DNA from: Gonapodya sp. JEL0774
Lineage: Eukaryota
Direction of reading: 5' to 3'
DNA length: 64,000 nt
NCBI GenBank assembly: GCA_027604505.1
Contig: JADIIX010000094.1
Span: 1 to 64,000 of the forward strand
Part shown: piece by piece, positions 4,853 through 57,766 of the stretch
How the letters are laid out: every line of letters begins with the position of its first letter
Numbering within the stretch: the first letter of the stretch is position 1
The notes under the pieces: model-generated
The model's input: the letters and a program-made list of their open reading frames with translations, nothing else
What the model was told of the DNA's origin: nothing
The model's database searches: none
Translations under genes and position numbers: made by a program

Positions 4853-7800
4853 TCAAATGTTCAATCTCTTTGTCGGGAGTATCACTTCAACTGACAGTGA
4901 ACGACGATGACCTCTCATCCTGCTCCCACCCTTCAAATGTAAACAAGTATTCCTCGCTTTCCAGCCAAGTGCGATCGCGGTATCTGCTGTGGTGCATTCG
5001 AAGCTCATATCGTCCACGGAATGTGCACTAACAAGGTATGGAGGTCCTGGATTTCCAGCAACTTCGATCCGCGGTACTTTTTTGACGAGAGTTTCGAACG
5101 GTGATGCTCCAGCTGCCATCAGACACAAATTTGAGTTTCTTCTTTAATCCGCATTTTTGTGCAATAAACACGAACCTTCGAGTTGTTCGGTAGGTTCGTG
5201 AGTACCAGCCGTCTGACGAGGAGTCTCCAACACGGTCAATGGAGTCTGTAACCCCTGTCTCGCACGCGAAGATTCTTTGGCTGTTATTTGGCTCGATTCC
5301 TAATACAGAGGAGCGGGAGATTAGCACTCCCGTCGCTGGCAGGGGCGGATCATTAACAATTGCACGCACCTGCACTTTCTGACCACCTGCGCATTCTTCC
5401 TCAAAGCTCCGACTAACATGAATCTCTGGGACAAACTCCGCCAATAGAGCGCCTTCATGTAGTTGAGTAGAATCACCTTTCGCAAACAGCGCTAGACAAT
5501 TTTCAATCGACATCTCCGACCAGTCACGAAGGCCTAGCACTTCCAAGGCAGGAGCGTGCTTGAAGACCTCACAAGGAATAGTTCCATTGGCAGGATTCAA
5601 TCTTGATAGGTCCGTGAGGGCCTCAATCGGAAAAGGGCATTGACAAACAGGGTTATCGCCAACAGTCTACCAGAGTGGCAATCCTTGACTGACCTGATGT
5701 TGGGACGCCGCAATAGCGCAATCAGACACAGTCAATCCAGGAATCATAGGATCTCCTCTTAAAATATCGGATCGTCCCGTTGGAGTTCCAGCTAAGTGGT
5801 TCTGATCGAAAGCTGCATCAACGACTCCTTTCGCCACTGTCGCGTATTTAAGGTCCTCATCCACAGAAATCAAAAGCCGGTCACTTTGAGATTTAATCGC
5901 AGATCCTTTCAGGAGATTGGATTCCGCCCCGTGGATGCTGAGATTTCCCGACATGTTGGATTGGGCATTTAGAAGGGGAATAATTTGGTTTCCTCGCAAA
6001 TGCAAGTCCTCTAGTTCTGTCAAAAGCGGCGCGGATATGTTGTGACTCCAAAGGACTTCAAGGGAATGCTGTATTTGCCGAATTACTCTAAGGAGCCTGT
6101 TAGATTCCGTTATAAGATGTTCAGTTTTGCGTTTGCAAACATTCAAAGCCTCGTCAATTGGCGGAACCAAATGTGTCAGATCAGGTGTTATTGCTCTAGC
6201 TTGGATCCCATCTACTTTGCTGGAGATATGCTTGACGGCTTTTTTCAGCGTTTTGAACCCCTTGTCTGACTTAAGATCTCTTAAACGGTGGATCATTCCG
6301 GGCTCAATTGTTGGCGATGGGTCTAACCTTTCACGCAATTTTTTAGATTTCATGTGTTCGATGTGGTCCACTGACTTTGGGGTGGGGTTAACGGGGCTGC
6401 ACGTTATGTTCCTTGGAGGACTTGAGTGGGAACCTCCCCAAAGAGGAAGGACACTAAGTTCATCGCAACTAACCAAAGTACCGAGCTTGGGCGCTTCCAC
6501 CTGGGGTTGTTCAGGTTGTTCAGGCGTACCGTGAAGCCACGGATGATTCTATGAAGCGGAAGGGGTAAATCATTCGACAGATCAATGAACCATTCTCGGT
6601 AGGGAAGGGAAAACACAGTCCCACCAAAAGGCTTGAGATATCATTCGTGATTGCATCGAAAAAGAGTAATCTCTTCGCAAGATCGAGAGCCGCAGTAAAG
6701 TTTCCAGATGAGGATATTGAAAGTAGTGGTTGATCGCCCGAATAAGGTCCACCCAACTCCTCGTCCAGTGGCGGATTCACTTCCAACATAGAAAGGAGTG
6801 ATTTTGCATCAGCGTAACTCATGGATGTGCCCGCTTTGATCCGCATTTGAATCAGGTGTTGGGGTGAAGAGAACTCTGCCCGTCTGCTGTCACGCACGCG
6901 AAAAAGGGAAATCATTCTCAGTAAGGCACACCTTTTTCAAAGGGTAGCAATGTTAGTGAAGCCAGAGAAAAGTGTAAAGACGAAAGAAGAACCGCACCCT
7001 ATGTTCCAGGTGTTTAATTCCTGCCAGTACTCAGGGCTCCATCCCTCCTCGTCGATCTTTTGCTCTTCTAGACCCAAAACTATTTGGATTCGCCCATTTC
7101 TATCGAGAAATATATCTTCCGTGTCGATAGGAGCGGGAATAATTCGTGAACTCGTCGCGTTCCAATTTGCAATAATTGGTGCAAAAGGTGAAGTTAATTC
7201 AGCCCTCGAGTGAATATTTTGAAATGCTGTAAGAACTTGTAGGAACATATTTGCTGCAGCACCGTATGTGAGGTTGTCCGTAAACGGGCTTGGGAATCTT
7301 GTGTTCCCCTGCGTTGCTTCGGGTTGTGGGAACTTCGCTGATGCGAGGACCTCCTGTAGACTGATCTCAAAATTAGTGTAAAGAAGGTAGAGATCACCAC
7401 CTATGATAACAATGGTTGAATCTAGTATCGATTGTCGATAAATGTTTTTGGCGTTAAAAACTTGCCGCTTCCATAAATGATCTCCTGAGGCAAAGCTGTA
7501 TCTTTGCATAACTTTGATTTGCCACTATCGGTTCGGCGATTGTGAATGACACTCAAGCGAACATTTGATAGCGCGAGTACCGAGAACTGGAGAAGGAATG
7601 CACTCTCTCTCACACGAATGGTGCCGAGAATGCACAGACTCTGGACTTACACCTTCGGACCGTGATATGTCATCGCCTTGCCAAATTCTGCGAAGTATGG
7701 CATGCTCTCCATTGTTCAGAATTTTAACATGGTGCGTCCTGAACCAGTAGAATATGCGGTGAAAAAGACTTCGTATCACGGCACACTTACTCACCTTTTG

Positions 7801-9330
7801 TTGAGCCTTGCAGAATCTAGGAGCTCAAATGATGGTCCTGCGCTATTACCTATCGGTGGTAGACGTTGTACGTGTGAAACCTGAGTGGCCTCAGTTCGAT
7901 GAATTATAAGAGCGGAAGATGCGGGTACTGCTAATTCGGCGTTCCGATCTGAGCAATTGTCTTGAAATTTCTTCTCAAACCCCACGCTTGAGCTCATTTC
8001 ATTCCCACTCCTCATCCGCACCCGAGTCTCTATTGAACAGATGCCCGACTCCTTCAAGAAAAAGTTCTCAGCGAATTTTCTCATGGTTGTCACAGACAGT
8101 GGCCGTACCAATGGGAGGCCAGTAGAGAGGATCGAGATACACGGTAGCTGTGGAGCTCCAGGTAATTGGGGTGGTGGGGGCAGGAACTGGATTCCCTTCG
8201 GTGGGGCAGGAAACGGCAGAGTCCAGGGGACCACATTGTCATCAGTCTGAGCAGACTTGTAAGGCTTCAAGCTCAGAGGCGACCGAGAAGTTGCTGGCGG
8301 CACCCCGTCCTCCTTTACAGTGAGCTGGGGGATTCTTCCTTGCTTCCCATGAGGCACTTGGTGGCCTGCCGCTCCTGAGCTCTCCGATAGACTGACAGTC
8401 ATCTCACTGCCTGATAGCTCTTGCTCTCTCTTGATAGTGGTGCCTTGTGAAATTATAGCGCGTGGAGGCTGCACATTGCACGTTGACCCAGATCAACAAC
8501 GGTCCCATGAACAGCTGTTTCAGATAAAGTGCTGGAGTATATTTGAGACTCACCAGATCAAAACTTATCCTAGGATCCTCGCGAAGTGAGTGCTTGCGGT
8601 CTCGAACCGAACAAGAGTTGGCATTTGTCATGTGCCCCACGTTGAAGTGTCCCGCGGTCTCACCAAACGCTCCATGTGAGAAAACGTTGTGATTCCCAGG
8701 TTCGGGGTGTGCCGAAGGCACGACTGCATCACTGCTGTGCAAGGTTTTCGTCTGCTCACTCCTTCCCCACAGATCATCATCCTCCTCAACACACCCCAGC
8801 AAAGTTGGCGTTTCAGTATCTTTACCGCAAGACTCATGTAAATGAGATGCATAGTACGCGTCGTAATCGAAGTCGAATTGAAGCAAGCTCTTGGAATTTC
8901 GGCTTGGTTCCTTGGTGTCCAAGAGCTCTTCTTCGAGCAACGAGAGGCCCATTCCCATAGAATCTTCTGCAAGAGCAACGCTTTCTGGATCGATTCCATT
9001 TTTATCCCATCGTGGGGGTCGAAATAACCGAGACTGCCCATTGAATAACGCAGCGTAGGCCTCCTTCACTCTCGGAGGGTCTCTGACCCGAAAACGTTTG
9101 ACCGATCCTGGATTGAATAAAGTTTCTTCGCGGGGTGTCTCCGCTGCCACCTTGCGTTTTTTTCCGAAGCTATCCCCCTTTTTCCTTCGAAAGGAAGTCC
9201 TTTTCCGCTCTGACGCACTGGGATCCACAGCACCGTCCTTAGCATTATAATGTTGGTGCTGAATATTCAAAGGACCGGAAGCTTCTTGTTGTGAAACGCC
9301 GAAGACGGTTTCTAAAACTTCCGACATCGC
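4853..9330 (-). CDS. Large multi-exon hypothetical protein (possibly more than one gene) with a degenerate kinase-like segment and a coiled-coil region
   Basis: A chain of long minus-strand ORFs separated by intron-sized gaps. 6937-7509 contains MFLQVLTAFQNIHSR...PIDTEDIFLDRNGRIQI...WSPE...TWNIG, which has kinase subdomain VI-IX spacing but no HRD or DFG. Confidence 0.45.
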
Positions 9331-9856
9331 CACAAAGGATCTCTGCCACAACAGCAGTCCGTAAAAGAAGAGAGATGGTTACACGATGAGATTGATTGAG
9401 AGCTAAGAGGCAAATCCGCGGTGCAGCGCAGGAGGGTAGCAGGTGGCTCATACGTCATCCTCACACATCGGCCTCTCGGGCAGTCTGAGGTCGAGATCCA
9501 GGACCGCAATAGTAAACTCACTTAGAGAGGGTAGCAAAGATGGTAGCAATCTCGGATTTGCGCCCTTTGTGAATTGGTGTTTGAGACTGAGGAGTAGTCA
9601 GTTCAATGTGGTCTAAAGGAGCACAGGCCATCCATAATCTTGAAAGTGGGCGATGACGATGATTCCTGAAAACTAGTTTCCTTCAAGCATCAGACTTATT
9701 GTGCTTGCCACGCAACAATTGGATTGTGGTGACACAGTGATAGAGGAATTCCTCAGGCTTTCCCCCCTCTAACTTCATCAATTTTGTAGATCAAATACAT
9801 AAAATAGGTGTACTTTATTCAACATGCATGCCGTTATGTAAAGGGTGAAACTCTTT

Positions 9857-11873
9857 CACTGTTGTGTACAAACTGTTGCCTTGATCCCCTTCGACGTCAA
9901 GAATGACATCAAAGCACCCAAGTCCTCCTGCACCAAAATCATCATGTGTTTATCACACGACCGTTTTCGACAAGCAGTGCTCCCAGCTCACCTCCCGGTA
10001 CAATGAGATCACCAGCATGATTTGCGTTGCTCCATCTGGCAACTCTGTTTTTGCACTCTCCGTTTTCCCAACCACCCTTTGTTTCTCTCGACTTTCTTTT
10101 ATCACGTTCATGCCATTTCCCGACGTCGATTGTTCCGCTTGTGGTGCAGATCGACAAGCGAAGTCCGCGGTCCGGGATTTCTCTACCGTGACAGGAAGGA
10201 AGATCTGTCGTTGTTTGTGCAATAAATCTCGCTTTGATTTCATTTTGCGTTCCCATCGTGCTTGCGCTCGTGCGTACTGGCCGGATACTAAAAACAGTCC
10301 GAAAGTCGTAGATACAAACGGGAACTCTTGTCTCGGGAAGGTACCCACTAAGTGAAAGAGGAAACGCCAAAATAAACAAGCTCAGAATCATACCCACGCC
10401 CACCAATGTCTTGCCAATGACACTGTGGGGTACGACGTCTGGTGGTGAAGCGTCGTGCGTGAGAACATCTGGCGAAATCATGTTTGACATGACGGACTCC
10501 ACGCACCTCCGAACCCGACTGTTGCCACAGTCACGACAACAAACCAAAAAGTCTCCGGAATACTTTGAAATCCAGTCCTCTGCCTGGTCTCTGTATAAAT
10601 CCATTGATTCAGGGACGGATCGAATACGGACACAGATTGCTCGCAGTAGAACAAGAGAGTGCTCTCAAACACGATCAGAATAGCATACGCGTAGAATAGT
10701 GCAAATATAGCTGTTCGTGATTGCCAAACGGCGTCTTCAAAGAGCAGGGTTGGTAGCGAGGAGAGAATATCATGAGCGCGTGAACTCACGAGTTAGCATG
10801 TAGATCTTCCCAGACTTATGCATCAACTTAAACAGTTGCAGAATTCGTGCTAGTCTCAACACTCTGAGGGCTCCCAGCATGCTCAGCCGAGTTGTGTCGG
10901 ACACAATATCCTTCACCTGAACAGCAGAAACAAGAAGCTCTATCCAGATGGGTAGTGTGGCAACGATATCAACCAAGATGACAGGATCTGCAAGTTCCTC
11001 CCAGTCCACCGTGCACATGAGCCCAAGAACTATTTCTGCAGTGAACGCAACGGCAACGATAATCTGCGTATCACTGCCTCCGATCAGATGATTCACGAAT
11101 GATTGGCGATTCCACATAGATGACTTGAGCACTTACATCAATAGCAAAAAAGACATACTGAGCTGTTCGATCGACCCACAGCTCTGGTATACTGGAGAGA
11201 CACTGTCAACAAAAAGCTCCTTCAATATATTCATGCTCGTATCAAAAAGCCTCGAAACACTTACCATCGATACTGTTGAGATCAAAATCACAGATGTAAA
11301 GAAAAAGTACCTCGCCCTCGCGGCTGGAGTGAACCTCGTTTTCATAATGACCCTCAACTTCTTTTTCCATGGGGGCCACCGATTAATCTTGCTCGCATGC
11401 CTCGACATTGTCTGCACCTCTATTTGGCTTGCAATGTCATCGTCGTCTTCAGCGTCCGTAAGGTCTGACCCGTTTCGTCTGCCGAGCTCTGTGGTGTGGT
11501 TTGAAGGCAACAGATACGACATATGGACGATAGCCTAGCGGTTTACTGTGATTGCTTTGGGGACAGACGTTTCGACTTTCGGTATCAATTTAATCGCAGG
11601 AAGTGTGAAAAGAGTGGGAAACTCCGAGGCAAGTTCCCCACTGCGAAGCTTTCAGGGCAGCCGATCACCGACTAAAACTACATGCGGTTTCACTCATGAA
11701 AGACCAGTGAAAGTAGAAATATGTTCGTGGATCGAATCATTGAATTCGTCTGACGAACGTAAAAATGAGCAATGCTTGGAAGGCCCAGAAGGCCACAAAG
11801 CATTTTGCGAAGACCGCCTCACAGAAGGTCAGCCCACAACTCACTCTTTAAATCGATGTCGATTCTTGCTCAT
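9857..11873 (-). CDS. Voltage-gated (6-TM, Kv-type) potassium channel subunit
   Basis: S3 ILVDIVATLPIWIE; S4 LRVLRLARILQLFKLMHK; pore FQSIPETFWFVVVTVATVGFG|DVVPHS (intron inside the Asp codon); S6 GVGMILSLFILAFPLSLI. Start codon approximate. Confidence 0.9.
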
Positions 11874-43200: not shown

Positions 43201-43579
43201 GAAAAGTCGTTTCAGCTGCAAATGGGGAGAAGGGGTCTTCTAGAGGAGGTTCGGTCTGGGAGTGCGATCGCCGGAGTGCGGAAAATGCAGCGGCAGAGGT
43301 GGTGGTAGATATGGATGAAGAGGATGAGGGTCGGTGTGACCTGACGGTGTTGCTGGGTGCATAAAGCGCCAGTCCGGCATCTTGCGAGTGGCTGCCACGG
43401 TCACCGGTTCTAGTGATTCCGCTCCGATCGTCCGAAACGTCATCAAGACTGGTCAAGTTTGCGGACGACATTGCGCGTCTCTTCCTCTGGAGCATTTTGA
43501 GCGACGCCAAGTCACGAGGTCGCTTCCTGGCACCCGAGGCGGGAACGAAGCTCGACACGGGATTCGGCTGACTCGACAT
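40248..43579 (-). CDS. DONSON: DONSON (downstream neighbor of SON) replisome assembly factor homolog
   Basis: Disordered N-terminus, then DWRDAWSSAVGGVRHG...CYYLNGEFGVVVR, AVVGRSSRGLRAAMRREG|IPFHPL, VHSLFDFLL, PRISCAHPFLNASL and GWIPP. Confidence 0.8.
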
Positions 43580-43849
43580 GTAAGGAAGTCGATCTTTTTA
43601 TCGCTGCAGCCGGTAGGTGGGAAACGTGAGGTCGTGGGCCGGTGGGAGAGTCTGGGAGATTAACGACACAACTTTAACCGTGCCATGAGCGGCAGGTTCT
43701 GGTTTCGGTACTCGGGTTTCTCCTCCCACCCCAGTTGTAGCTTTGAAGTAACTCGATATTTACATTGTAAAGTCTCTCAAATCGCTCTGTTGCCTAAACC
43801 TGGATTGGAAAGACAATTACAGTTGTGCAATGTAAAATACCCCCAAAAT

Positions 43850-44149
43850 CTAGTCAGAACTTTGTGCCTCAGAGCTACATCAGCCCAGACGAACCCTGAA
43901 CCAGGTCCCGACCTGGAGGTGGAAGGCCCAATGTAAACTCCTCCCCTTGCGAGGATAAAGACCGTGAATGACAGCGGGAATCTCAAACAATGAGACAAGT
44001 GGATGGTGAAAAGAACAAAGGAATTTCGAGGCTAGAGTTTGGATCAAAAAGTTTTTGAGACATCAGAGAGTTCACTCTCCACCAAAAATGTAACGGAATT
44101 AACACTCTCTGCTCTGTGCAAAAGTACACTCACAGATATGCAGAGGTGT
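43850..44149 (-). ncRNA. Candidate Fanzor omegaRNA scaffold (structured 3' region)
   Basis: Directly downstream of the Fanzor stop: long hairpin 44101-44150, hairpin 44066-44079, GCAA-tetraloop hairpin 43942-43955, and hairpin 43901-43916 nested in the 43872-43880/43931-43940 stem. Ends not defined. Confidence 0.55.
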
Positions 44150-47100
44150 TTAGCGGCGGAAGAGTCCAGGGCGAGTGATATCACTGGTTGCGTTGGCCTG
44201 AAAGAACAGGTAAAGGATGTTTCGGGCAGCATTCCTGTCTCTATTCCAAGTGATTCCACACTGAGCATTGCCGCAAGATCTGGAGAGAGGTCAAACAAAC
44301 AAAGTCAATTGCTGATGATGGTATCATAATTGCACACTTTGATGCCAAGATCACAAGAATAAACTCACCTGACTCCCCAGTGTCTTTGCTTTGTGCCTTC
44401 TTCCTTGGGGAAAAAGGTCTGGCATCTGGAGCATATACGAGAGGTACAAAACTCATCAATGAGCACAACTGTAATGCCACACATGGCGAAGAAGCGCTTA
44501 ATCATTTTATTTGGTGATGATTTATGGCCTCTGCTAGCCTATTAACCAAAGCATTCAAGCTCCGTGAGAACAAGTTAGTCTTCTATATGCTAATCATTGT
44601 AAACTCACATGGTTAAATTCAGCTGCACCCCAAGCAACAATGCATGTTGATGGGGCCCGTCCTCTAAGAAATTTTTGCACTAAAAGATGCAGTGCACGCT
44701 GTTGACCTGACTTTGATTTGAGTCGTAGACTGTAAAATGAGAGAGATCAGCAGGAGGAAGGAGAACATTGAATGCAGTGAGCATGGTGCTTATGCCAATG
44801 AATGAATCGGGGTGGAAGTAGGGGGGGAAGGAGGTTAAGGAGGTTGGAGGTGGGGAAACTTACCAGCGCCAGCGAGGTGACTCATAGAATTTGAGGATAT
44901 ATGTTAGCCATCGGAGACGGAACTCCAAGTCAAGAAGTAGGGCTGGATGGTCCACAGTCTTGTTTGTGTGCACCCTTGAGTTGAAGTTTCGGATCCGTGC
45001 ATTTGTACTCTGCCACTTTTCACGGTATTTCCTAGAGTGCAAAAGTAAAAAAAAAGTTGGGTAATGGGTATGGATCACAGAGATTTGTTGCCAGGATTTG
45101 CATGGTAGGGAGAGATGATGGGGTGCAGTGGATCAAAAGGACAGGAAACATCCACAATAATGGTCGTAGTTTCATAAAAGAGCCACAGTTTTATGAGGAA
45201 GTTGGCTTCATTTTGGATGCAATTCTCAGGCAGCACTCACTTTTGCCAATCAAATCCAGCACGATGGTAATACTCTTTTGTACTGAATCCCCGGTCATAA
45301 TCTGGATGATAATTGTTGAAATTACGTGGGTCGAGGGGTGGGCGAGGGATGCCAACCATGGGTACATCCACACACGCATGATATGTTGTGTGCACCCGAC
45401 CTGGGTCACAAGAAGCGACAAGCTTGCCCCGCAGATCCCTATCAGCAACATCCTTCTCAAGCCACTTTTCCAAATCTAATGGCTCCCCACTACTTGTTGG
45501 CTTCCTCATAGATATCCGAGTTCCAATGCCGTCGGTTCGGAAACTAGGTGATGTAATAAGCAAAAGAGCAATATCATTTGTGATGTGATAGTGAGTGAAT
45601 TAAGTGGGAACCATGCGAATCAAAGCAAATTGGAAGAAAATGCACCTACAACCAAATTTGTGGGTCTGTGCAACATTACTTTCAAATTTGGGAAAGTTGG
45701 TCACCAGCCGCCAAAAGTCCACCGCCTCGGCAGGAGACAGATCCTCAAGTCGGGGAAGTGGAAAGTTGCGGATGGCATTGCTCAGAGGTGCTGGTAAGTT
45801 TTGATGGTTCAGCATTGTCTTGGAAAGAGCAAAGAGCTCAAAGAGTCCTGCAGTGGAGAAAAGGACCATATTCATCTGTGTGGATCCATGTGGCGCCATT
45901 GAAAAGTGGCGGAAAAGGCCCTTCACATCCTGCTGAGAGTCTAAACCACTTTGAATGTGGTAAAGGAGTGGGACCCATTGGTGCCATTGCACCCTCCGCA
46001 TTGCAGGTTTCAAATCCCTATCATGACACATCTCCTTGATGTACCAGTAAACATCTTGCAGAATTTTGGTGACACTTTCACGTAGGGTATTGTGATTAAA
46101 TGCTTGTCGCTGCTCAGCCTTGTCAAGGTATGCAAGCATGGTGTTTGAGAGTGAGAAAGCATTCCCTGATAGTGAAATAAAACGAAGGACGTGTGAATTG
46201 TTTGTCAAATATCCATTGAGCACCCTTGAGAAACACCACTCACCCTTGTATAGCAATCCATAGATGTGCCCTGCAACACCCTGTGCTGTTCTCTTGCTGA
46301 AAGTAACTTTCTGTCTCCCATTCCCCCCATTCAAAGGCTGAAGCCCATTCCATATTCGCCGTTTCAGATCCTGTTTAATCCTATTAGGAATGTTCTCAGA
46401 GATCATTATCCGAAAGTTCACATCCATTTCATTTGCAACGGCAGCAAGGATTGCAGTCAAGCCTGTTTTTGTATGGATAATCAGGACAGTAAAAATGAAA
46501 AATGAAACCAATCAGATTAGATTTCATCATTGCATGGATAAACTTGGCAGGGAAAACTTACCTTCTGACCTTGCAAAAGGCTCAGCAGGGCGATATGGGT
46601 AGTAATGAAGCCGGGCATACAGGGATAATTGTGGGTTGTTGTTCACTGACTTTGGTGCCATGTGGTTCTCAGGCCTCCAGCTGACTGCCTGCAAGCACTG
46701 ACCCAGGAGGGTGACACCAAGCTGTGCAAATGTCATTTCAAGGCATTAAAAATGAGTGCATGATCATAAAAGTACCTCTTGTACTTCTCAATGAGGTTTC
46801 AAAACTCACAGGGACACTAAAAGTTGGTAAATCTCTCGCTGCATATGGGTAAGCAGGGCGGCCACGTCCCATCTTGAACTGAAATCGGACCCAATCCTGA
46901 AGTGGATTGAACCTCGCAGGATGAGCTGGTGCATTAACCAGTGGGCAGATAGGCACAGGGGGAGGTCTTTTGGGGAGCTGTGGCTCATCTGCAGCCACAA
47001 GTGCAGGTGCAGGTAGAACCTGTGCTGCAAGCCATGCCATGTACCATTGCTCATTCTGGGTGACAAACATATCCCATTCAGTGTCCTGGAGATCACTAGC

Positions 47101-47647
47101 TCTCTTGTATTCTTCACCAAGCTTGAAAGTGATGTAGTTGTTGTGAAGAAGGAAACTTTCACACCGAAGCCTGGTAACCTGATCAAAAAGACCAAGAGGA
47201 GAAATGGAGAAAGTGAGCAAGAGAGAGACAGAGCTTATAAATGTTTTTGAACTTACATTTGCCGAGACATAAGTGGCATCCCTTTCGATGTAATGATATG
47301 CATCCTTGAAGAACTTGCGGAAACCACAGGGAATTGTGAAGGCTGAACCCTGTGTGCCATCGGGGTACTGAACATTCGCCCTCATGTACATGTTTCGGCC
47401 AAACTCGTTGTCATCATTTAAACCTTTCCAGAGGTGTCACCACCAAACCAAAATTGAGTGAGACTCAACCTTTTTCGAGCTCAATAATTGGCTATTCCGT
47501 TGAAAACTCACCAGCTTGAGCAGCTGCAGCTGCTTCCTGAGGTATTTGTCCCTGCGGAGCGGGTGGGGGGGGGGCAATCTGCTGGGGTGGAGCCTGTCGT
47601 GGTGCCCCATGGCGTCTTCCTCTGCCTCCACGAGGTGGCATGTCCAT
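44150..47647 (-). CDS. Fanzor1 (eukaryotic TnpB/IS200-IS605 OrfB-like RNA-guided RuvC endonuclease), 11 exons, about 820 aa
   Basis: Exons 47647-47512, 47423-47257, 47178-46810, 46721-46562, 46462-46244, 46165-45646, 45543-45241, 45031-44864, 44729-44609, 44538-44369 and 44279-44150 total 2463 nt and are open throughout. Motifs: FSMAP, FRTDG, RuvC-I VASCDPG, STKEYY, IVAWGAAEF, RuvC-II VVLIDEFCTSRICSRC, CGNAQC, RuvC-III WNRDRNAARNI, and C-terminal RPGLFRR*. Confidence 0.93.
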
Positions 47648-47769
47648 TGGAGGTGGGTCAAAGAGGGATGGGGTACAAGCTGGGGGAAACAGAGAAGGTG
47701 TATGTGCAGGTAGTGGTGGATCTGAGGGCTGCGATGGTGTGATCGGCAGGTCAGAGTAAAAGAGAGAAT

Positions 47770-48500
47770 CTAAAAAAGCAGTAATGCAAGGCATTGTAAG
47801 CATTTACATATCACATTCTGTGTGGTACATAGATTCAAAGTGGTACAAATACCATCTAGCTCCAGAAATGGGTTGATGCATTCACTGCTTTCCCTGCGAT
47901 TTTTGTCTTCCAGGTAGTCTGTCCAGAACTGAGTTCTCCTTTTGCGCACCTAGATAGTAGCAACATAAGATGACTCTTTTTGAACCAGTGCAAAGTGTGA
48001 TATGCAAACACTAACCTTTCTCCGAGAAGATGATGCGGTGCGAGTAAAATTGCACAGAGGACCTTTGACATCTGCAACATGCCCCCACCAACCACATACA
48101 ATACACATAGGTGGTATTGGTGAGGTGGGTAGCTGCTGGCAGTACTTTTGCTTCTTGATGCATCGCTTCCTCATCTTTTGTCTGGTTCCCCGCTTTGCAG
48201 GTGGACCATCGGCAGATACAATAGGGAAGGAATACTCCATACCGAAGCTTTCAAAGTAGGCCCACAGCTCCTCCTTGCTCATTTTGTCCCTTTCAGCTTC
48301 TGAGACTTGTCTTGCTCTTTGCCTCAGTCGCTGTTGTTGTCGCCGCGCTGTGTTCGGTGACGGGGAAACTCTCTTTGTCCTGGCATTTCGCGCTGCCTTT
48401 TGAGCAGCTTTCACCCCCAGAACCTGATTGTGACTTGGGGGAGTTGATGCACTGCATACTGCACGTGGGGGTGGTTCACCCATTGTGAAAGATGACATCA
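47770..48500 (-). CDS. Small basic protein with a Zn-knuckle-like motif
   Basis: Arg/Lys-rich ORF containing CIVCGWWGHVADVKGPLC (CX2CX4HX8C), with a probable intron after SSRRK. Boundaries approximate. Confidence 0.45.
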
Positions 48501-49037
48501 CACAATGAGAAGTCACACTGGGAGGGACACGCTGCCCGAGCGTGGGAGGAGGCTGGCGCAAGTGTTGGCAATGGCCAGCCACCGCAAGCGTTGAAGATGG
48601 ATCAAGCAAGCGTCAGTCAATGGGCACCTCAATGAGCTTGAGTCAGGAGCTCCTGCAGCCCCACCGCCATGTGATAATTGTTTAATATACAACGAGCTCG
48701 AGAACCCCAAAAACATGTGATACTGACTATATGCCCAAAGTTTTGTTTGGTCGCTTTCAAGCATCTCTGTTTTTGAGGGTGGTGTTACATAGTATCACCA
48801 CACATACATTGATGCAGATTTTATGCCGAACTCTTTCGAACTCTAACACTGATTCTTCTGATATTTTTTGATTGTTTCACTTCACTGGCTGTACATTGAA
48901 ATCGCCTTGGAAAAGACCCAGAAAGTGGAGCTCATCATGGGAGCAAGTCGCCAGGCTGATAACTCATTCATTGACCCTTAGATCCTCCACACAGATTGCT
49001 ACATTGACAACCACGACTATGGCAACACGCGGGACTG

Positions 49038-49730
49038 GTGGACGGTAGTTCTGTGAGTACTGCCCCTCGCCAAAGCCTTCCCCCACTCCCCCCCACCCTA
49101 CAGGTGCCAGAATCAAAATCCACCATCAAACTCGTTGTATCAACCATGAAATCCAAAATGACTGGTCAAATCGCAGTTTGGATGGTAAAAGCGATGGGTG
49201 CATCGGTGTTGGAGTTGTGGAAGGCGCGGGATGGCAGAATTCTTGTGGTGTTGAGGGTGGCAAGAGAGTCGCAATCGTTGAAGGAATGGCAGGCGGTCCG
49301 AACGGATGGAAGCTCTGTATACAAATTTCTGAGGGACTTTTCGGCGAAATGGAAGGAGCATTCGGCGATGGGCGGGACGATGAGACCAAAATCCATCGTT
49401 GTAAAGTTCCTGGATTTCATCAACGACGAATCTAAAACGATATTCTCATACGACATATCGAATGAAATCAACGATATTGTAACAGCAATGACGAGTGACG
49501 AAACGTGGAAAGAAGCTCTCAAGCTCTGATGGAGCTTGGCGGATAATGCCATGACGAAACGCCCCCCCCAGCACCGAATCCTCGTCGTCCAGGACCTTTT
49601 CACTTGTTACAACTGCAATAGGAACGGTCACATGTTGCGCAAGTGTAAAGGGCCATGAGGAGCGTGCGGGACCGGTCTAGGGGAGGGAGTCCACAGTCCG
49701 TTTGGCGAAGAAAGAGAATGCGGCGGTTAA
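49038..49730 (+). pseudogene. Degenerate retrotransposon gag-like remnant with CCHC zinc knuckle
   Basis: ORF 49038-49529 continues in frame past a TGA into CYNCNRNGHMLRKC (49605-49646, CX2CX4HX4C), followed by a second TGA. No pol seen. Confidence 0.6.
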
Positions 49731-50040
49731 CACAGTAGCCGCGGCAAAGAAGAAAAACAATACAAAATATAAAGGGAATTGATGTGTGACGTTTAAGAAC
49801 AGTTCAAATGTACCTCAGGGAGATGTTTCAGAACACATGTCCAATAGCGAACCCTTCACCAATCACACATCAAATTAAACACATGTTATTGATAGAAAAA
49901 CATACTTATACGCCTTTCTACTCAGATCTATCTCAAAATGTCACACCCATGACCCACTCCTTCAAGCTCAACCCATAATCTCCCCGGACCCTGTCCATTG
50001 CCGCATCACTTGCACTCCTGCTTCCAGTGCATCAGCAAGA

Positions 50041-53000
50041 TTACTCACTTGAAGAAGGATAGTCTGAACTGTCTGTTGAAGTTTCATCAGTTGACTTGTT
50101 GCTGCTGCTGTCCCCACTTTCCTCATCCTCTTCATCAGTCTCTTCTTCCTCTCTCCTCTCCTCCTTGTCACGAAAATCTTTCCACCACTCACCACCTTGT
50201 CTCTGCAAGTCCTCGATTGTTAACCCTCCAAGTCCGTGTCCATGCACAACACAATTGTTGCAGGTTGGGGAACGGAAGTTCCATGTCACAATCATCCCTT
50301 GGCGGATGTGATCCCTCCATGCCTGCTTCACTGAGAGAGTCACAATGGCTACAAATCCTCCTTCAATTGAGCTCACAACCTTCTTGACTTGAATCTGTGC
50401 AGAGAATCACCAAGTTTGTTGCAATTGTGACAGATCAGTTTGTTTTCCACATTGTGCCAACTTCAAAACATACTGCCATGCACACTCACCTCACACATGG
50501 CATGATCTTCACATGATTGGCTGGCGAGACCAATTAACCCAAACGCAAGGGCGAATTCATATTGTGGTGTGGGGACACCCTGATCCTGGCATGTCCAGCT
50601 CATCCATCGGTGATGCTGACTAGGTACACAATCAACATCCTTCTCAATGAAGAAGACAGCGGGAGCTTGTGTCACTTCCCAATTGCTCCTAGCTATTGCA
50701 TCAATGTTGCCGATTCGCAATCTGCAGCGACTTCCACAGGGGTCATGGTTCATCTGTGCATCACCAAGCTGTCCATTGTCAAAAACATCCACCACTACCC
50801 TCCTCTGCAAGGCCCTCAACTCGACCTCCATATCCATCACTGTGACTTCCAAAGGCCTTGCGATGAATTGTAGCGATGCTTGTGGCCCGTAATGAGAGGC
50901 AAACTGAGCAACTGCCATGTAGTCCATACGACAGTGTTGTGTCACCTCTCCTGGAAAGCTGGCAGGATCAACTATCAGGTTCCACATGCCTGCCTGCTCC
51001 TGCATGTCCCTTTGCTCAAGTTCAAGGTATGGGTAGATGGGACTGGTTGTTCCACAGTCAGAGGCTCGCAGTTGATGATTAATCAAACCATCACTGAGAC
51101 GGCAAAGCACCGCTGCAATCACTGACACGCTTGGGCTAACCATGGTATACAGTTGGAAGAAACAAAGGTAAAGAATTAAATAGAAAGCGATTAAATTGCT
51201 GTGCTCTCAGTGTGGATTACTTAGTAAAAAGCACGCACTAGGAGCACTCACCGATTGTGCACAGCGAGAAACTGCTGATTCAGTTCCTCTCGGTATAGTT
51301 TGAAATCCTTCACATACAGGTTAAAGAGGGCCTTGATGTAATCATCCTCCACAAACCCTTGTCCACGGAACTCATCCCACAGTTTGTGGATAGAACCTTC
51401 AAAGTCAGCCCCAGAGCGGAATGTTGCGTTGGCTGTGGCGCAAACTGTAGCTCTAAAGTGTAGGAGGAGTAGGATCAACTTTTCGCAGTCTGGATCAGGT
51501 ATACGATTTTCCTGCCTGGTCGAATGGGAATGTGAGTGGGGATGAACCAGTGATAATTGCAAGGTTGAAGACTCCATCAATGCAGAAAATACAATGCTGC
51601 ACTCACCTGGCCAGAGAACGCACCCCTTCCAAAATATGGAACCATGCTTCCGCCAGATACGCTACATGCGATGACGACCTGCTGTAACGTTCAATCGAGA
51701 GTACTTCCTTGGGCCAGTTCTCCTCCACACGCACACCCGCTTTACCCTTTCCCCTAGCAGGTGCCATGACTGTCTCTGTAGCTACGACAGCGGCATCTGC
51801 AACAGGGGGGGCGTCCTTCCGAGGCGCGCACTGGGAAACATGGGTTGTGAGTGGTTGTCGCAGGGCGTTCTGTCGATGGTGAATTATGAGCACACACGAA
51901 TCATGAGAGGCTCGCTTCCATGATATGTTTTGAGACCCCAGTACCAGTTCTCACCTTTTCGCTGTTTGCACGTTTCATCTTCTTCCTCTTCCGCTTTGGA
52001 GTACTCTTCACCGTTCCAACAGCCGCAATGACACTTGCCGCTCCCTCTTGCGTGGTTGTCTTGGTGCTACTTCTCAGAACTCTCCTATTAGAAGCTTTCG
52101 ATGAACTCAATTCTGTATCCAATAGAGATGCAGATTGCTCTCACGTGGGTTCAGTTTCTGCAAGTGCTGCCACCAAGCCTGCACTGGGCTCAGTCCTTGA
52201 CTCTTGCGCGGGCGGTGCGAGGTGGGGGGACGGCGATCGTGGTAGAGTTTGATCGTGAAGGCCAGACTGCCCAAGTGCCGTTGGTGGTGGCTGTTTGCTG
52301 GAAGATGAAGTCTGCGTTGAAGTTGATGTAGGTGGTGCAAGGAACTTGACCGATGGTGGAGATTGAGGTTCAAGCACCTGATTACCCAGATCGGTCTCGG
52401 TCTCGGGTGCGGCAGCTACAGGAAATGGCTGGGCTGGTGTGGCCATTACGGTGGGAGTGTCCACATTGGCTGTTGTCTCCACAGGTTGAGCGTCCTTGCC
52501 TTTCGACCTTTCTTCTGTCGAGCAGTCCATGTTGTCAGAAGGGTTGGAAGCTTGTGTCTCATTTACCTTGTGCGCAAGGAAAAGAGATTCCAATGAGTTC
52601 AGTGTGACCAATGTGTGCACGAGTAGGAAACTCCTGACAGAAGTCACCTTTGGTGAAATAACTGGGTTCTCCTTCTGCACATTGCTGTTAATCAGCACCA
52701 CGGTGGTCCTCGCGTCCTGGAGCCGGGCTGCTTGTTCAGCATGAGCTTGAATCGCATTGCCGTCCTCGTCCGATATCACCATCGGATCAAATAGAGAATC
52801 GACGTCAATAGGTTGATGTGGCAGATCTTGCGGTGTCGAGATTGAGGGAGCTTTGGGAGCTCTTGGGGGTGCAGATGACAAACCACCTCCTTGAGACCGA
52901 CATGTTTTTGTGATTCGAGGCACTGCACTACCCAGCTTCCTCGTCTCTTCCACTATCTGCATCATTTCCACTTCCCTCTGCAAGACAGGTGCTGCATCCT

Positions 53001-53730
53001 CTGGGGTCAGATAACCATGCTTTGCGAGACGAATTAGCAATGGATCTCCACCCTTCGACACCACACGTGCCATTTTTGCAATGTCCCCCGACGTGTACAT
53101 TGGCTTCTTGAGAATAACATACGAGATGTACTTCAATCCAACCTGACACAACCTCTCCAGTGCTGTCACTTGCACACCGTAGATTATTGTTCCCTCTGTG
53201 GTTCCAGACAATGCTCCCCTCCAGACATTCTCCAGTATATTGGTGACAAGATTGCGCAGACCCTTTTCAGGCCGTGGGTCCTTCTGATTACCCTTGGAAA
53301 CAATCACCTTGGTACCGTCAAGATGACAGTCTCCCGGGAACAGCATCTTCCTCAGCAGATCGTACGTCCCTATAGATGTCCATGATTCTGTGCGATAGTC
53401 TTTGTTGATTCGCTTGTCATTGTATTTGAACGGTACGATCTTCAATGACGTATTCTTTGCGTTGTAGTTTGCCACCCAGGTGTCATATGTTTTGAAATCA
53501 ACGATATGTCTATCCTTCTGAGCTTGAAACGCCAATCCAGACAGGATCAGAAATTCCGTTGCAGCGTTGAAACTGAGGAGGTCATTGACAGCAACCATCA
53601 TGCTGTTCGCGTTTCGAAGACGTTGCTCTCTCGCCAACATGTACTGTTGGACTATTTCCGGTGCTAGGAGAAAAGAGCCAGGGAGGCTTTGATTGTTCGA
53701 TGGCAAACGGACGGACATCTTGTCGCTCAT
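50041..53730 (-). CDS. Large multi-exon hypothetical protein (about 1000 aa) with disordered linker, NLS, degenerate SET-like C-terminal region and acidic tail
   Basis: Minus-strand ORFs join by GT-AG introns (for example a short intron at about 52145-52087). NLS PKRKRKK. C-terminus GLIGLASQSCEDHAMCE|...RDHIRQGMIVTWNF...CNNC. Confidence 0.55.
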
Positions 53731-53932
53731 GCTATGACGAGGTGGGAGTTCAGATGGGAAATTAGGGCAACAACACTCGAGCAGGTGATCCCTCCTCATC
53801 GCCTCCACAACCCCCCTCCCCGATCCCTCCGCCCCATCAACACACAATCGGCAATTGAGATAGTATTACTGATAATTCAATGTTTATTGACATGAAGCTG
53901 TACAAAGTCTACGGTGCCACTGCCACCCACCC

Positions 53933-54988
53933 ATGGCAACCACATCCTGGGCAGAAGAGGTGAATGACACGGGACTTGAACCACTCTACAGGCTGGCTGG
54001 CCATCAAACCATCGCGGACCAGAACGGCTGAGTTACTGCTCCAAGTCCCCGCAAGAAAGATTGATCTCCATCTGATCTTTCGTTTTCTTTTTCATCCAAT
54101 TACATTGCTTTGTGATAGACGATCTTGCCAACTATGGGACTGTTGCAGCGTTCGTAAAGGAAGTATTGAAGGGCCCGTGGAAGACCAACCGGGAGCCTGC
54201 GAGGACGAAAATTGTCCGTGAACTTGCGCGGGCTTTGGATCTGAGTTCCTCTCGAGTCAACACGATCGATCGCGTAAGTTTGACTCAGCTTATATTCTCC
54301 AATCAAACCTTCTCTTATTTTGATGGATTCCGCATATGCATTTGATATATCCATTCACTCCTGCCTTGAATTTGTCTCTGTGTGCAACTTGACGGCTCTC
54401 CACGTTCATACCAGTGGCTATCCTACGAGGAACTAAGCGAGCGCTTCCCGGAGTAGGTGCTAACAGATGTGGTTCTTTTTTCGTACTTGAATTTTCCCCT
54501 AACATGGACTGTTCACATAACCATATCTACACCTTACCTGCAAGGTCCGCTGTGACAGGATCCAAAGTGAGTTTTAATCTTTGAATATTGGCACTCCTAA
54601 TAAATTCATTTTGCTGATCTACTTTGCTCATGCAGAATGCCGCTAACGTGTGGGCACCAAGAAAATACTTGCAATATGTGAGTTCATCATTCTTCAAGAG
54701 TGAGGTTATATGGTTTATTTTTTACAAATGCGGTGTTTTCCTTTGAAGACTACTGCTGGCATTTGCGGCAGGTTGCCACCGGAGCTTGAGCAAAAAGCAG
54801 TCGAACATTTCATGGTCGATCCATCTCAAAGCATCCAAGACTTTGCGATCTGGATCTTTAAAGAATTTGGTACATGGTACCAACTTCAAAGTGTTCATAA
54901 GTTGTTGAAAAAGTATGGAGCATCAACTGAGACGTTGAACGAAATATTAGAGGAGGCAGGAATAGAGAACGAATATACGTACTCATAA
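53933..54988 (+). CDS. IS630/Tc1-type helix-turn-helix DNA-binding protein without a DDE domain; 5' end uncertain
   Basis: Small in-phase exons (WLSYEELSERFPE|SAVTGSK|NAANVWAPRKYLQY) lead to GRLPPELEQKAVEHFMVDPSQSIQDFAIWIFKEFGTWYQLQSVHKLLKKYG, then a stop. Confidence 0.55.
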
Positions 54989-55211
54989 TATTACAAAGGT
55001 TTCTGACTTGGGGCATCTGCCGGTTGAGGGATAGCATGGGATTGCCCTCCCCTTATCCGGCTGGGTTTGTGCTCAGACACCGGTCCGGCCACGCTGCTGG
55101 GTCCGTTACTAGTTTGAAAGGCGGACCTGGCTCCTTGAGAGTTGTCTGCACGGGCGTGCCTTGATCTGGCTCTTGTGCCTTTAATTTGAATCTGTCACAA
55201 TCTCTAATTGA

Positions 55212-56745
55212 GATGGCTTTAGTAGGACGAATAATGCAGCTTCCGGTAAGTGAATGCGTTTGGCGTTTCCAATTCCTGAGTTCAAACTGTGGACCCCCGC
55301 GATCAGTTGTTGATCGCTACTTTCAACATTACTTCGTGGATGCCATTGGTACGATTCCATGTTGACACCACATACACCCTGTACTCACTACCATATCCAG
55401 ATACTTACCAGGAAGTTTGGGATTCATCGAACGGGACTGAACGATACGTTTACCTGACGCATTCTTGGCTCTTGTCCATGTATCTCGACGACTGTCCGAA
55501 ATATGCGCAATTTCGCTGCCCAACGGCAGAGGAAAAATTGAAGGTCGTGGAAGCCATACGGAGGTACAATTGCTTGCTCATTGCTCTTGGAAGGAATATG
55601 TGATTACGAGCCTCTTGATGCTCATCTCCACCTAGAGGGCAACTCACTTACCACGCCTACCCCTTCAACACTGAAATTGAGTATGGTAATGCGGATCTCG
55701 CCCGCTATGCCATTCAACTCACACACCACATTGATGACCTCGTCGCCAACTATCCCAACACCACTGGACCGAATTTGAACCGTCGCAAGACCGTAGTTTT
55801 GCAACGAGATGTACCAGGAATAACACAATCCGTCATACCGATCCTTGTATCGGAGGGCGTAAGGGCCATTTCGGTGAGTCTTGCGTTCCTTCCAGTTCCG
55901 TGGATCCTCTCCTTCAATTGCCTTAACGCGGTTGACGTGGCCTGGATTCAAAGTTCGGATGCAACGCCGCCTCCAGTCCCGTTGCCGTGCCGCACAATCG
56001 GCCTTTTATATGGCGAAATGATCAAACTGGCGATTCTATGCTCGCCTTGTACAATGATGGCAGTTACGGATGGGAGTTGGATCCAGTGAAACACTTGTTC
56101 TACGTCCCTCTACGTGAGGGCAGAAAGTCATGTCCATATGGAGCCATTTTTGCGTGGTGGGGTTGGGATAAGTAGGTGTATTGCATTCGACTTCTGATGG
56201 GATTTGTAAACTAATTCTCTCCTGGTATGTACTCCCTCCATCAGCGCTGGCCCTTTTCCCGTGTCTGATATCCGCAATTATTATGCCCAATTCAGACGGA
56301 CATACCCGAATGCAACTTTCATTGGCGCCACGCTGGAAGATGTTGCTGACGCCTTTACTTCCCCAGAGTGCCTTTCGCTCCTTGAAACTGTGGATGGTGA
56401 GATGGGTGACACATGGGTGAGTGAAAGGAGACAAGGCACTTAGTTCAACGTTGCTCCTGCCTTGTGCTATATTCCTCTAGATCTACGGAATGGGCTCGGA
56501 TCCTTATAAAACAGGAGCTTTGAGGGCACTAATGCGAGCTCGGGAACAATGTGGTACCGATCCGTTGTGTGAGACAGATCCGGGCAATGTGTCTGAAGGA
56601 AGGTCTTGGGGCAATTTTTCGAGGTGGTTGTTGAAAGGGGTGGAACACACATGGTGAGTAAACGAGGATTCGAAAATGCTTTGCTATGACAAAATCACTT
56701 CATTCCCCATCCTCGATTCCAAGGGGCGGGTCATACAATCATTAA
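55212..56745 (+). CDS. DUF5054/GH38-N-like glycoside hydrolase family protein, apparently truncated
   Basis: YVYLTHSWLLSMYLD, TYHAYPFN, LQRDVPGITQSVIPIL, WGWDN|AGP, EMGDTW|IYGMGSDPYK and LLKGVEHTW|G, then an early stop. Confidence 0.65.
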
Positions 56746-56772
56746 TAAAACACATTAAGGAAATTGGATATC

Positions 56773-56853
56773 GCGAGAGTGGTCGAGTGGTCAAGACGGA
56801 AGATTTAAGTCCTTCTCACGAAAGTGGCGTGGGTTCGAACCCCACCTCTCGCA
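56773..56853 (+). tRNA. tRNA-Leu(TAA), intronless, with long variable arm
   Basis: GCGAGAG/CTCTCGC acceptor stem; D arm GTCGAGTGGTCAAGAC; anticodon loop TT-TAA-GT; variable arm CACGAAAGTG; T arm GTGGGTTCGAACCCCAC; downstream T-run. Confidence 0.95.
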
Positions 56854-57766
56854 TCCCGGAAAGGGCTTTTGATTGTTTTTCGGACGTCAGCATTGGCTTG
56901 GCACTAGAGCAGTCACAATGTGGAATGACCCCAACGGAGCATCTCTAATGGAGTGACCATTTTTTTTAAAGCTGTGATAAGGGGAATAGTGTGATGTTCT
57001 TCACCGCTCTGCCACATCTCCGCAAATAAGAGACCTCGCAAAGACTCGTTTCCAAACAAACAATCACATCTCCTGCCACTGCTGCCAACCAATCATCAGC
57101 ATACAACTTGAAGGAATTCAAACATATAATGGCCTCTGAACACAACACACCCAGACGGACAACCGTCTGGTGCGGCAGAGCTGTACGAGTGTTAAAAAGA
57201 TACGTTTTTGATATTGGGTTGTCGTATCTTGCACTGTACCGGTCTCTGCACCTGGCACGTGCGTGCTGCCGAACCTGCCTAAGCCGAGAAAGGGGCGAAG
57301 ATGGAATGATGACCCGGTCACGTGACAAAGTCCAAGTGCGTGGAAACAGTAATGCAAACACTGCCAAGTGCCGGTGGGTCACGATCGTTTACTTGAATTC
57401 GAAAATGTCGCAAAGACAATCGAATTGTGTTTAGGAAGGCAATTGTATTGATTTGTTCCGTTGAGTTAGCTTGGAGCAACATCACGTAAGATATTCCAAA
57501 CTACATGTGATGACACGAAAAGGGATGTGAAAAGTTCTTGTGGGTGGAAATAATGCGAAGGGGATGGGGATGGATGGGGGATGGATGGGTTCCAGAAGTC
57601 CAGCAATTCTGAGGTCCACAAATCACGATGCAAATCTACGAGGGTCGGGGATTCACAAAGCAGGAACATGGGAGACAGATGGGAGATGGGGGAATAACCC
57701 AGAATGGGGTGGCGTACATCACTGGAGATGAAGGGTAGCGCGGTCGGTTGCGGTTCGGTAATCAAC

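What the first reader, a model, noticed from the sequence alone, without database searches (positions are those of the whole stretch)
44150..47647. Intact, 10-intron Fanzor1 RNA-guided nuclease largely invisible to the ORF track
Seen: eleven exons joined by canonical GT-AG introns give an uninterrupted protein of about 820 aa. It carries the ordered TnpB/Fanzor1 motifs FSMAP, TDG, RuvC-I DPG, EYY, VAWGAA.F, RuvC-II IDEFCTS, a CxxC...CxxxxC zinc finger, RuvC-III WNRD.NAARNI and a terminal RP..F.R. The catalytic D-E-D residues are all present. The three exons carrying VAWG, RuvC-II and RuvC-III do not appear in the correct frame in the ORF track. Known: Fanzors are eukaryotic omegaRNA-guided DNA endonucleases derived from TnpB. 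Inference: this is a potentially active programmable nuclease, and its host-like intron density suggests long residence in this genome.
Basis: partly seen in the sequence, partly recalled or inferred. Interest (0 to 1): 0.96.

Follow-up and report, generated by a model that had tools for sequence, protein, structure and literature searches.

The report
Intact intron-rich Fanzor1 nuclease in chytrid
A chytrid-type fungal genome carries an unbroken gene, predicted to be spliced from 11 to 13 exons, for a Fanzor1 protein that keeps all its catalytic residues and likely cuts DNA under the direction of a guide RNA; it is a new, mis-annotated member of a known family, and neither its guide RNA nor its activity has been shown.

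Summary
Confirmed. Ten GT-AG introns on the minus strand give a stop-free 820-aa protein with every motif listed. Two more upstream introns extend the frame to 1,049 aa and 13 exons, adding basic clusters and a Cys/His motif. The public gene model P0001 (Gonapodya sp.) equals the first 854 aa, then stops inside an intron, losing RuvC-II, the zinc finger and RuvC-III. A G. prolifera relative (P0003, 42% identical) is gap-free across 9 of 10 core junctions and is already listed as Fanzor1 by Saito 2023. SpuFz1 is the top solved-structure hit (E 0.0011). The gene lies in a 5.4-kb CpG-poor block; CpG is lost at silent positions and in introns but kept in Arg codons (p 5e-8), pointing to long transposon-like mutational decay under purifying selection. 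No terminal repeats, transposase domain or near-identical copy were found; the omegaRNA is only two candidate hairpins; no RNA run was listed. Verdict: new member of Fanzor1, probably still functional; guide, TAM and cleavage untested.

The parts
48016..48483 (-).
   Evidence: identical to public model P0001; absent from relatives P0002/P0003
47853..47949 (-). Exon 2 of the extended model (aa 157-188), basic cluster across the exon 1/2 junction
47512..47769 (-).
47257..47423 (-). Exon 4 (aa 275-330); homology to relatives begins here
46810..47178 (-). Exon 5 (aa 331-453)
46562..46721 (-). Exon 6 (aa 454-506)
46244..46462 (-). Exon 7 (aa 507-579), inferred REC region
45646..46165 (-). Exon 8 (aa 580-752), FSMAP motif; followed by the one non-consensus donor (GTGCAT)
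45241..45543 (-). Exon 9 (aa 753-853): TDG (WED), RuvC-I DPG (D799), EYY; the public model ends just after this exon
44864..45031 (-). Exon 10 (aa 854-909), helical RuvC segment aligning with SpuFz1
44609..44729 (-). Exon 11 (aa 910-950), VAWGAA motif
44369..44538 (-). Exon 12 (aa 951-1006): RuvC-II E979 and first zinc pair C986/C989
   Evidence: Pfam PF07282 E 6.7e-6; NF040570 E 0.0014
44150..44279 (-). Exon 13 (aa 1007-1049): second zinc pair C1009/C1014, RuvC-III D1021, stop
   Evidence: Pfam PF07282 E 3.9e-4
44098..44152 (-). Hairpin beginning at the stop codon; omegaRNA candidate 1 (unproven)
   Evidence: z -2.6 in a fixed 80-nt window; -4.1 with hand-picked ends, similar on both strands
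43758..43918 (-). Two adjacent long hairpins near the edge of the CpG-poor block; omegaRNA candidate 2 (unproven)
   Evidence: z -3.6 in window 43920-43841; -2.9 on the gene strand against -0.6 on the other
43720..49170 (.). CpG-poor block enclosing the gene; approximate extent of the inferred element

Best explanation
This is an unbroken Fanzor1 gene, predicted to be spliced, that likely belongs to an old, low-copy, non-autonomous mobile element of a Gonapodya-type chytrid and likely still encodes an RNA-guided DNA nuclease. Shown from sequence: the open reading frame across 10 (probably 12) canonical introns, the Fanzor1 fingerprints, the D799-E979-D1021 triad and the four zinc ligands. Inferred from characterised Fanzor1 systems: the spliced mRNA is translated into an 820- or 1,049-aa protein whose basic N-terminal clusters would take it to the nucleus; the structured non-coding stretch between the stop codon (44150) and about 43720 would be processed into an omegaRNA whose last 14-20 nt come from the DNA flanking the element; the complex would cut TAM-adjacent DNA matching that guide, chiefly empty alleles of the insertion site, and repair from the occupied allele would preserve the element. 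Mobilisation, if any, would need a transposase encoded elsewhere. Inferred history: the gene has sat for a long time in CpG-mutating, transposon-like chromatin while selection kept the protein intact.
For: Stop-free splice product with ordered motifs. P0003 aligns at 42% over 809 columns, 59% (174 of 295) over exons 9-13, gap-free at 9 of 10 core junctions, and is listed FZ1 in the Saito 2023 supplement. SpuFz1 is the first PDB sequence hit for two profiles (E 0.034; E 0.0011). The Atlas features and model of P0003 match TNB-domain clusters (score 0.98, TM 0.71). CpG o/e is about 0.4 in the block against 0.88 and 0.83 in the host parts of the window; within the core CDS 45 of 231 first-position C are followed by G against 21 of 398 at second and third positions (p 5e-8), while the myosin control shows no such contrast (87 of 366 against 154 of 567, p 0.25); introns hold 8 CpG, o/e 0.18. 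Two further diverged copies (P0002, P0004) carry the same source name on other contigs. Hairpins follow the stop codon, as omegaRNAs do.
Against: No terminal inverted repeat above chance between 43560-44200 and 47600-57000 (best inverted score 12, shuffled median 13). No transposase catalytic domain in the neighbouring ORFs tested. No near-identical copy: P0001 is a single-member cluster and the sister copies are only about 50% identical, unlike the recently mobile Spu-1 family (about 82%). The hairpins are only modestly above background (5 of 258 random windows reach z -2.5, 1 of 258 reaches -3.5) and could not be tested for covariation. The only intron-containing Fanzor assayed in Jiang 2023 did not cleave. 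[quoted passage not shown]
Confidence: 0.55

Rival explanations
1. A domesticated Fanzor1: no longer part of a mobile element, kept by the host as a small gene family and loaded with guide RNAs made elsewhere, for example against transposons or giant viruses.
For: No element ends or transposase found; low copy number and about 50% divergence among the three same-source copies; a relative of similar gene span in a second species (3,489 bp for 845 aa, against 3,498 bp for 820 aa here); purifying-selection signature; a 229-aa N-terminal addition not seen in relatives.
Against: The CpG loss sets the gene apart from the host genes of the window (synonymous-position o/e 0.18-0.24 against 0.6-1.1); its upstream neighbours are orphan and gag-like sequences rather than conserved host genes; synteny could not be tested.
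Confidence: 0.2
2. The protein is intact and binds an RNA but cuts poorly or not at all, or this copy has lost a usable guide and is a recently stranded survivor.
For: CrFz1, the intron-containing Fanzor1 tested by Jiang 2023, formed an RNP without detectable cleavage; no clear right end or conserved scaffold was found here.
Against: All three catalytic residues and four zinc ligands are conserved with P0003; Arg codons, including 11 CGA codons one step from a stop, survive in the core.
Confidence: 0.2
3. The gene is not spliced as modelled (for example it ends after exon 9, as the public model has it) and is a pseudogene or a truncated, nuclease-less protein.
For: The public model P0001 stops in the 209-nt intron; one donor is the weak GTGCAT; no RNA evidence was obtained.
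Against: Exons 10-13 are 48-68% identical to P0003 and stay in frame across four consensus GTRAGT junctions; relatives map onto each of these exons by tblastn on the raw window.
Confidence: 0.05

Closest known systems
Gonapodya prolifera KXS17374.1 (P0003), listed as FZ1 in Saito et al. 2023 supplement (PMC10432273) and among Fanzor HMM hits in PMC10711439 supplement
   Same: 42% identity over 809 columns, same motif order, same C-terminus, catalytic and zinc residues conserved, similar gene span implying about 950 nt of introns.
   Different: P0003 has DPN instead of DPG and lacks the 229-aa N-terminal extension. I saw it only as table rows; no experiment on it was seen.
SpuFz1 of Spizellomyces punctatus (Spu-1 element; PDB 8GKH, 9CEU-9CEZ)
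   Same: Chytrid Fanzor1; TDG, RuvC helices, catalytic E (E541) and D (D606) align; non-coding structure directly after the stop codon.
   Different: SpuFz1 sits in a 2.1-kb single-ORF element with 30-nt inverted repeats, 19 full copies at about 82% identity and 134 ghost elements; here there are 10-12 introns, no detectable inverted repeats, few diverged copies and a longer protein (most Fz1 are 600-700 aa). Sequence similarity is remote (E about 1e-3 only by profile).
CrFz1 / CRe-1,2,3 of Chlamydomonas reinhardtii (Helitron2-associated Fanzor1)
   Same: Multi-exon Fanzor1 (five or ten exons, EST-supported; PMC3627910) with a small RNA from the 3' UTR.
   Different: CRe elements have recognisable Helitron2 ends and several conserved copies; none could be shown here. 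No direct sequence comparison was made. CrFz1 did not cleave in vitro.

Membership tests
TnpB/Fanzor superfamily | D-X(125,275)-[TS]-[TS]-X-X-C4 zinc finger-X(5,50)-RD motif (PMC3627910) | tested here: met
   Pattern matches the spliced model from D799 to D1021; definition read; Pfam PF07282 and NF040570 hits on exons 12-13.
Fanzor | DPG at RuvC-I | tested here: met
   DPG at 799 (570 in the 820-aa model); definition in PMC10711439.
Fanzor | Rearranged RuvC-II glutamate six residues before the zinc finger | tested here: met
   E979-x6-C986xxC989; aligns with SpuFz1 E541 through the profile of relatives.
Fanzor | RuvC-III aspartate after the zinc finger | tested here: met
   D1021 in WNRD, conserved in P0003 and P0004, aligned with SpuFz1 D606.
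Fanzor1 | TDG motif in the WED domain | tested here: met
   TDG at 756-758 (527 in the 820-aa model); D and G conserved in 3 of 3 relatives; definition.
Fanzor1 | Placement in the Fz1 clade by phylogeny | not tested
   No tree was built. Indirect: the 42%-identical relative P0003 is labelled FZ1 in the Saito 2023 tree table, and SpuFz1 is the best PDB hit.
Fanzor1 | REC-WED-RuvC-TNB fold like SpuFz1 | tested here: inconclusive
   AlphaFold models of P0003 and P0001 were of low confidence (pLDDT 45 and 42); fold searches gave nothing significant. The Atlas's own model of P0003 matches TNB-domain clusters at TM 0.71. The full spliced protein was not folded.
Fanzor1 (OMEGA system) | Conserved omegaRNA at the element's 3' end, bound by the protein | tested here: inconclusive
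   Two hairpin candidates; no Rfam match; no DNA of related loci for covariation.
Fanzor1 (OMEGA system) | Location in a transposable element with definable ends and TAM | tested here: inconclusive
   No inverted repeats above chance; CpG-poor block suggests an element of about 5.4 kb; some Fanzor elements lack TIRs; no second copy available to map ends.
Fanzor1 (OMEGA system) | RNA-guided, TAM-dependent dsDNA cleavage | not testable with these tools
   Needs RNP reconstitution and a TAM library.
Fanzor-like IS607 TnpB (pro-Fanzor) pattern | DPG-x(120-160)-E-x6-CxxC-x(12-18)-CxxC-x(4-8)-D (PMC10711439) | tested here: not met
   No match: D-to-E distance is 180 and the second pair is CxxxxC, in line with the larger Fz1 type rather than compact TnpB-like proteins.

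The most novel reading that the evidence does not exclude
A domesticated eukaryotic RNA-guided nuclease: an intron-rich Fanzor1 family fixed in Gonapodya for a long time, freed from its transposon, fitted with a new N-terminal Cys/His module and nuclear signals, and used by the host with guide RNAs made in trans as a programmable defence against transposons or viruses.
Probability: 0.12. Interest if true: 0.88.

Novelty: new member of a known kind. Interest (0 to 1): 0.45.

Why it matters
It adds a full-length, catalytically intact Fanzor1 that protein-based surveys miss because the public gene model stops before the nuclease core. Whether intron-rich Fanzors, the ones longest adapted to eukaryotes, still cut DNA is open: the single one assayed in Jiang 2023 did not. 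This gene, with a purifying-selection signature, a relative in a second species and a short, bounded 3' region in which to look for the guide, makes that question directly testable, and it is a candidate for testing whether a Fanzor has ever been domesticated by its host. As a genome-editing lead it is large (820-1,049 aa) and has no known guide or TAM.

Tried and rejected
No sequencing run was listed for 43600-49000: no RNA holder listed, which is no evidence either way. Scans for related loci found none in metagenome contigs or viral contigs. Single-sequence searches of solved structures with P0001 and P0003 found nothing meaningful; only profiles reached SpuFz1. Both AlphaFold jobs were too poor to use, and fold searches on the first gave only helical noise; the second was not searched. 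Inverted-repeat searches and Helitron- or CACTA-like end motifs downstream of the stop gave nothing convincing. Rfam found only the tRNA. A transposase role for the neighbours was considered and not supported: the HTH gene at 53934-54988 has a sub-threshold HTH_33 hit, no catalytic domain and host-like CpG. A premature stop in the upstream orphan gene at 52141 was considered and dropped, since a 59-nt GT-AG intron would remove it in frame (read). Counting GTRAG donors as a proxy for host intron density was too noisy (2.6 per kb here, 1.7-3.8 in ten other genes, with similar antisense counts). Earlier scan notes held nothing on this locus or protein.

Full report
Observation. The gene lies on the minus strand. 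Six-frame reading and a scan for splice signals gave ten GT-AG introns of 70-209 nt between ATG 47647 and TAA 44150. Joined, the eleven exons give 820 aa without a stop, with FSMAP, TDG, DPG, EYY, VAWGAA, IDEFCTS, CxxC, CxxxxC, WNRD-NAARNI and RPGLFRR in order. The two other frames of the same spliced sequence hold 21 and 51 stops. The last three exons sit in open frames of only 50, 57 and 46 codons, so an ORF track misses them.

The gene is probably longer. Two further introns (48015-47950, 47852-47770) keep the frame open to ATG 48483, giving 13 exons and 1,049 aa. The added 229 aa hold basic clusters, a C-x2-C-x4-H-x8-C motif and a proline-rich stretch; Pfam names none of it. A search with exon 7-8 returned P0001, a public model named 'hypothetical protein, Gonapodya sp.', which equals the first 854 of these residues letter for letter and then stops inside intron 45240-45032. 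It is a prediction on the same DNA, so it is not independent proof of splicing, but it explains why the gene is overlooked: without exons 10-13 it has no Pfam hit. For the extension itself the evidence is moderate: best start-codon context, only one open frame (0, 5, 7 stops), a CpG pattern like the core's but not significant (11 of 69 against 9 of 122, p 0.08), and absence from the relatives.

Independent support for the splice model. Homologue searches found few relatives: 3 proteins among 3,596 and among 5,024 candidates and 7 in the representative library. P0003 (G. prolifera, 845 aa) aligns at 42% over 809 columns and at 174 of 295 positions over exons 9-13; 9 of the 10 core junctions fall in gap-free aligned sequence, the tenth in an unalignable low-complexity stretch. 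P0002 and P0004, about 50% identical, carry the same source name as P0001 but lie on other contigs. P0002's model ends by running off at the position of our junction after residue 950, which suggests a shared intron (inference). P0003's gene spans 3,489 bp for 845 aa, close to 3,498 bp for 820 aa here, so the intron-rich layout likely predates this copy; its intron positions could not be read.

Family. Exons 12 and 13 hit Pfam Cas12f1-like TNB (E 6.7e-6, 3.9e-4) and NCBIfam guided_TnpB (E 0.0014 each, far below the whole-protein cut-off). The superfamily motif of Bao and Jurka (PMC3627910, passages) is met, as are the Fanzor fingerprints DPG and glutamate six residues before the zinc finger and the Fanzor1 TDG motif (PMC10711439, passages; tested). 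The compact pro-Fanzor pattern of that paper is not matched. Profiles of the relatives rank SpuFz1 first among solved structures (E 0.034 among 6 rows; E 0.0011 among 18 rows); the aligned E and D lie 65 residues apart in that chain, as E541 and D606 do (PMC10432273, passages), and correspond to E979 and D1021 here. P0003 is listed as FZ1 in the Saito 2023 supplement and among Fanzor hits in the PMC10711439 supplement. My own folds failed (pLDDT 45 and 42); the Atlas model of P0003 matches TNB-domain clusters at TM 0.71.

Context and history. The gene lies between a host-like gene starting near 43580 and a run of orphan sequences (see Noticed in passing). CpG observed/expected falls from 0.88 to about 0.4 between change points at 43,720 and 49,170; the loss is specific to CpG with a matching TpG/CpA gain, and AT-rich host tiles do not show it (0.95 in 64 tiles against 0.49 in 22). 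The lower boundary may partly reflect the CpG-rich promoter of the next gene. Inside the gene CpG is scarce in introns (0.18) and at silent codon positions (0.18-0.24) but not in Arg codons (0.95) (p 5e-8, myosin control p 0.25). The simplest reading is long exposure to CpG mutation, as in methylated transposons, with selection preserving the protein. Methylation is not shown: a review (PMC13297926, passages) says early-diverging fungi have almost no 5mC, while PMC10538959 (passages) lists G. prolifera among fungi with a CDCA7-type protein and says almost all such species have DNMT1. No inverted repeats above chance, no second copy in the window and no transposase domain were found.

Guide RNA. 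In SpuFz1 the scaffold fills the roughly 80 nt after the stop codon. Here a hairpin starts at the stop codon (44152-44098) and a strand-specific pair of long hairpins lies at 43918-43758. Against 258 random windows (5 at z -2.5 or lower, 1 at -3.5 or lower) they are modest, and the whole 561-nt region folds no better than chance (z -1.3). They are candidates only.

Mechanism. Shown: frame, motifs, triad, relatives, CpG pattern. Inferred from characterised Fz1 systems: nuclear import, processing of an omegaRNA from the 3' region, TAM- and guide-dependent cutting of empty sites, and repair that preserves the element (0.55). Rivals: domesticated host gene (0.2); intact but non-cutting or guide-less copy (0.2), for which CrFz1 is the precedent (PMC10530073, section on eukaryotic Fanzors); mis-spliced or truncated gene (0.05).

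Novelty. Intron-rich Fanzors are known (up to about 9.6 introns per kb, PMC10530073 passages; five to ten exons in CRe elements); this gene has about 4 per kb of CDS. No main text in the library holds both 'Fanzor' and 'Gonapodya'. The window's own protein, by locus-tag prefix or accession, was not found in the held supplements of three surveys (2, 9 and 1 files), though files not held, or tables keyed by assembly, may include it. A search for Fanzor with zinc-knuckle terms listed 12 of 256 papers, none mentioning Fanzor, and one for domestication listed 6 of 8 without a relevant title; both were seen as listings only. Verdict: a real, intact new member of Fanzor1, with an unusual N-terminal extension and a clear footprint of selection; interest 0.45.

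Noticed in passing
window 49140-49700 (+): Degenerate gag-like fragment with a CCHC zinc knuckle (Pfam PF00098 E 2.6e-5), an in-frame stop at 49527 and a likely frameshift; CpG-normal, wedged between two CpG-poor blocks, so possibly a later insertion.
   Followed up: partly
window about 49960-53730 (-): Multi-exon orphan gene or genes upstream of the Fanzor on the same strand; no Pfam or PHROG match, only weak Atlas leads under 0.9 to plant retrotransposon ORF1-like clusters; its 3' part (49800-51065) is as CpG-poor as the Fanzor and may be cargo of the same or another old element.
   Followed up: partly
window 53934-54988 (+): Small multi-exon gene ending in a winged-helix segment (HTH_33 E 4.7e-4, below cut-off) of the kind seen in IS630/Tc1 transposases (recalled), with no catalytic domain; the first apparent donor is not GT.
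   Followed up: partly
window 44133-44032 (-): A consensus GTGAGT donor 17 nt after the Fanzor stop codon with a plausible acceptor 102 nt on; if spliced, this 3' UTR intron would remove most of hairpin candidate 1.
   Followed up: no
window 56773-56853 (+): tRNA-Leu (TAA) gene.
   Followed up: no
proteins P0002 and P0004: Two more Fanzor1 copies with the same source name whose public models also lack part of the nuclease core (P0002 ends after VAWGAA; P0004 lacks the RuvC-II/zinc segment); may be annotation errors or real decay.
   Followed up: no
proteins P0005-P0009: Short unnamed metagenome fragments 40-49% identical to this clade, showing relatives in uncultured organisms.
   Followed up: no
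window 5000-9400 (-): Cluster of ORFs with no obvious identity (for example 5667-6548 and 8404-9378) beside a kinase-like fragment and a potassium-channel-like gene near 10000-11500; seen in the ORF list only.
   Followed up: no
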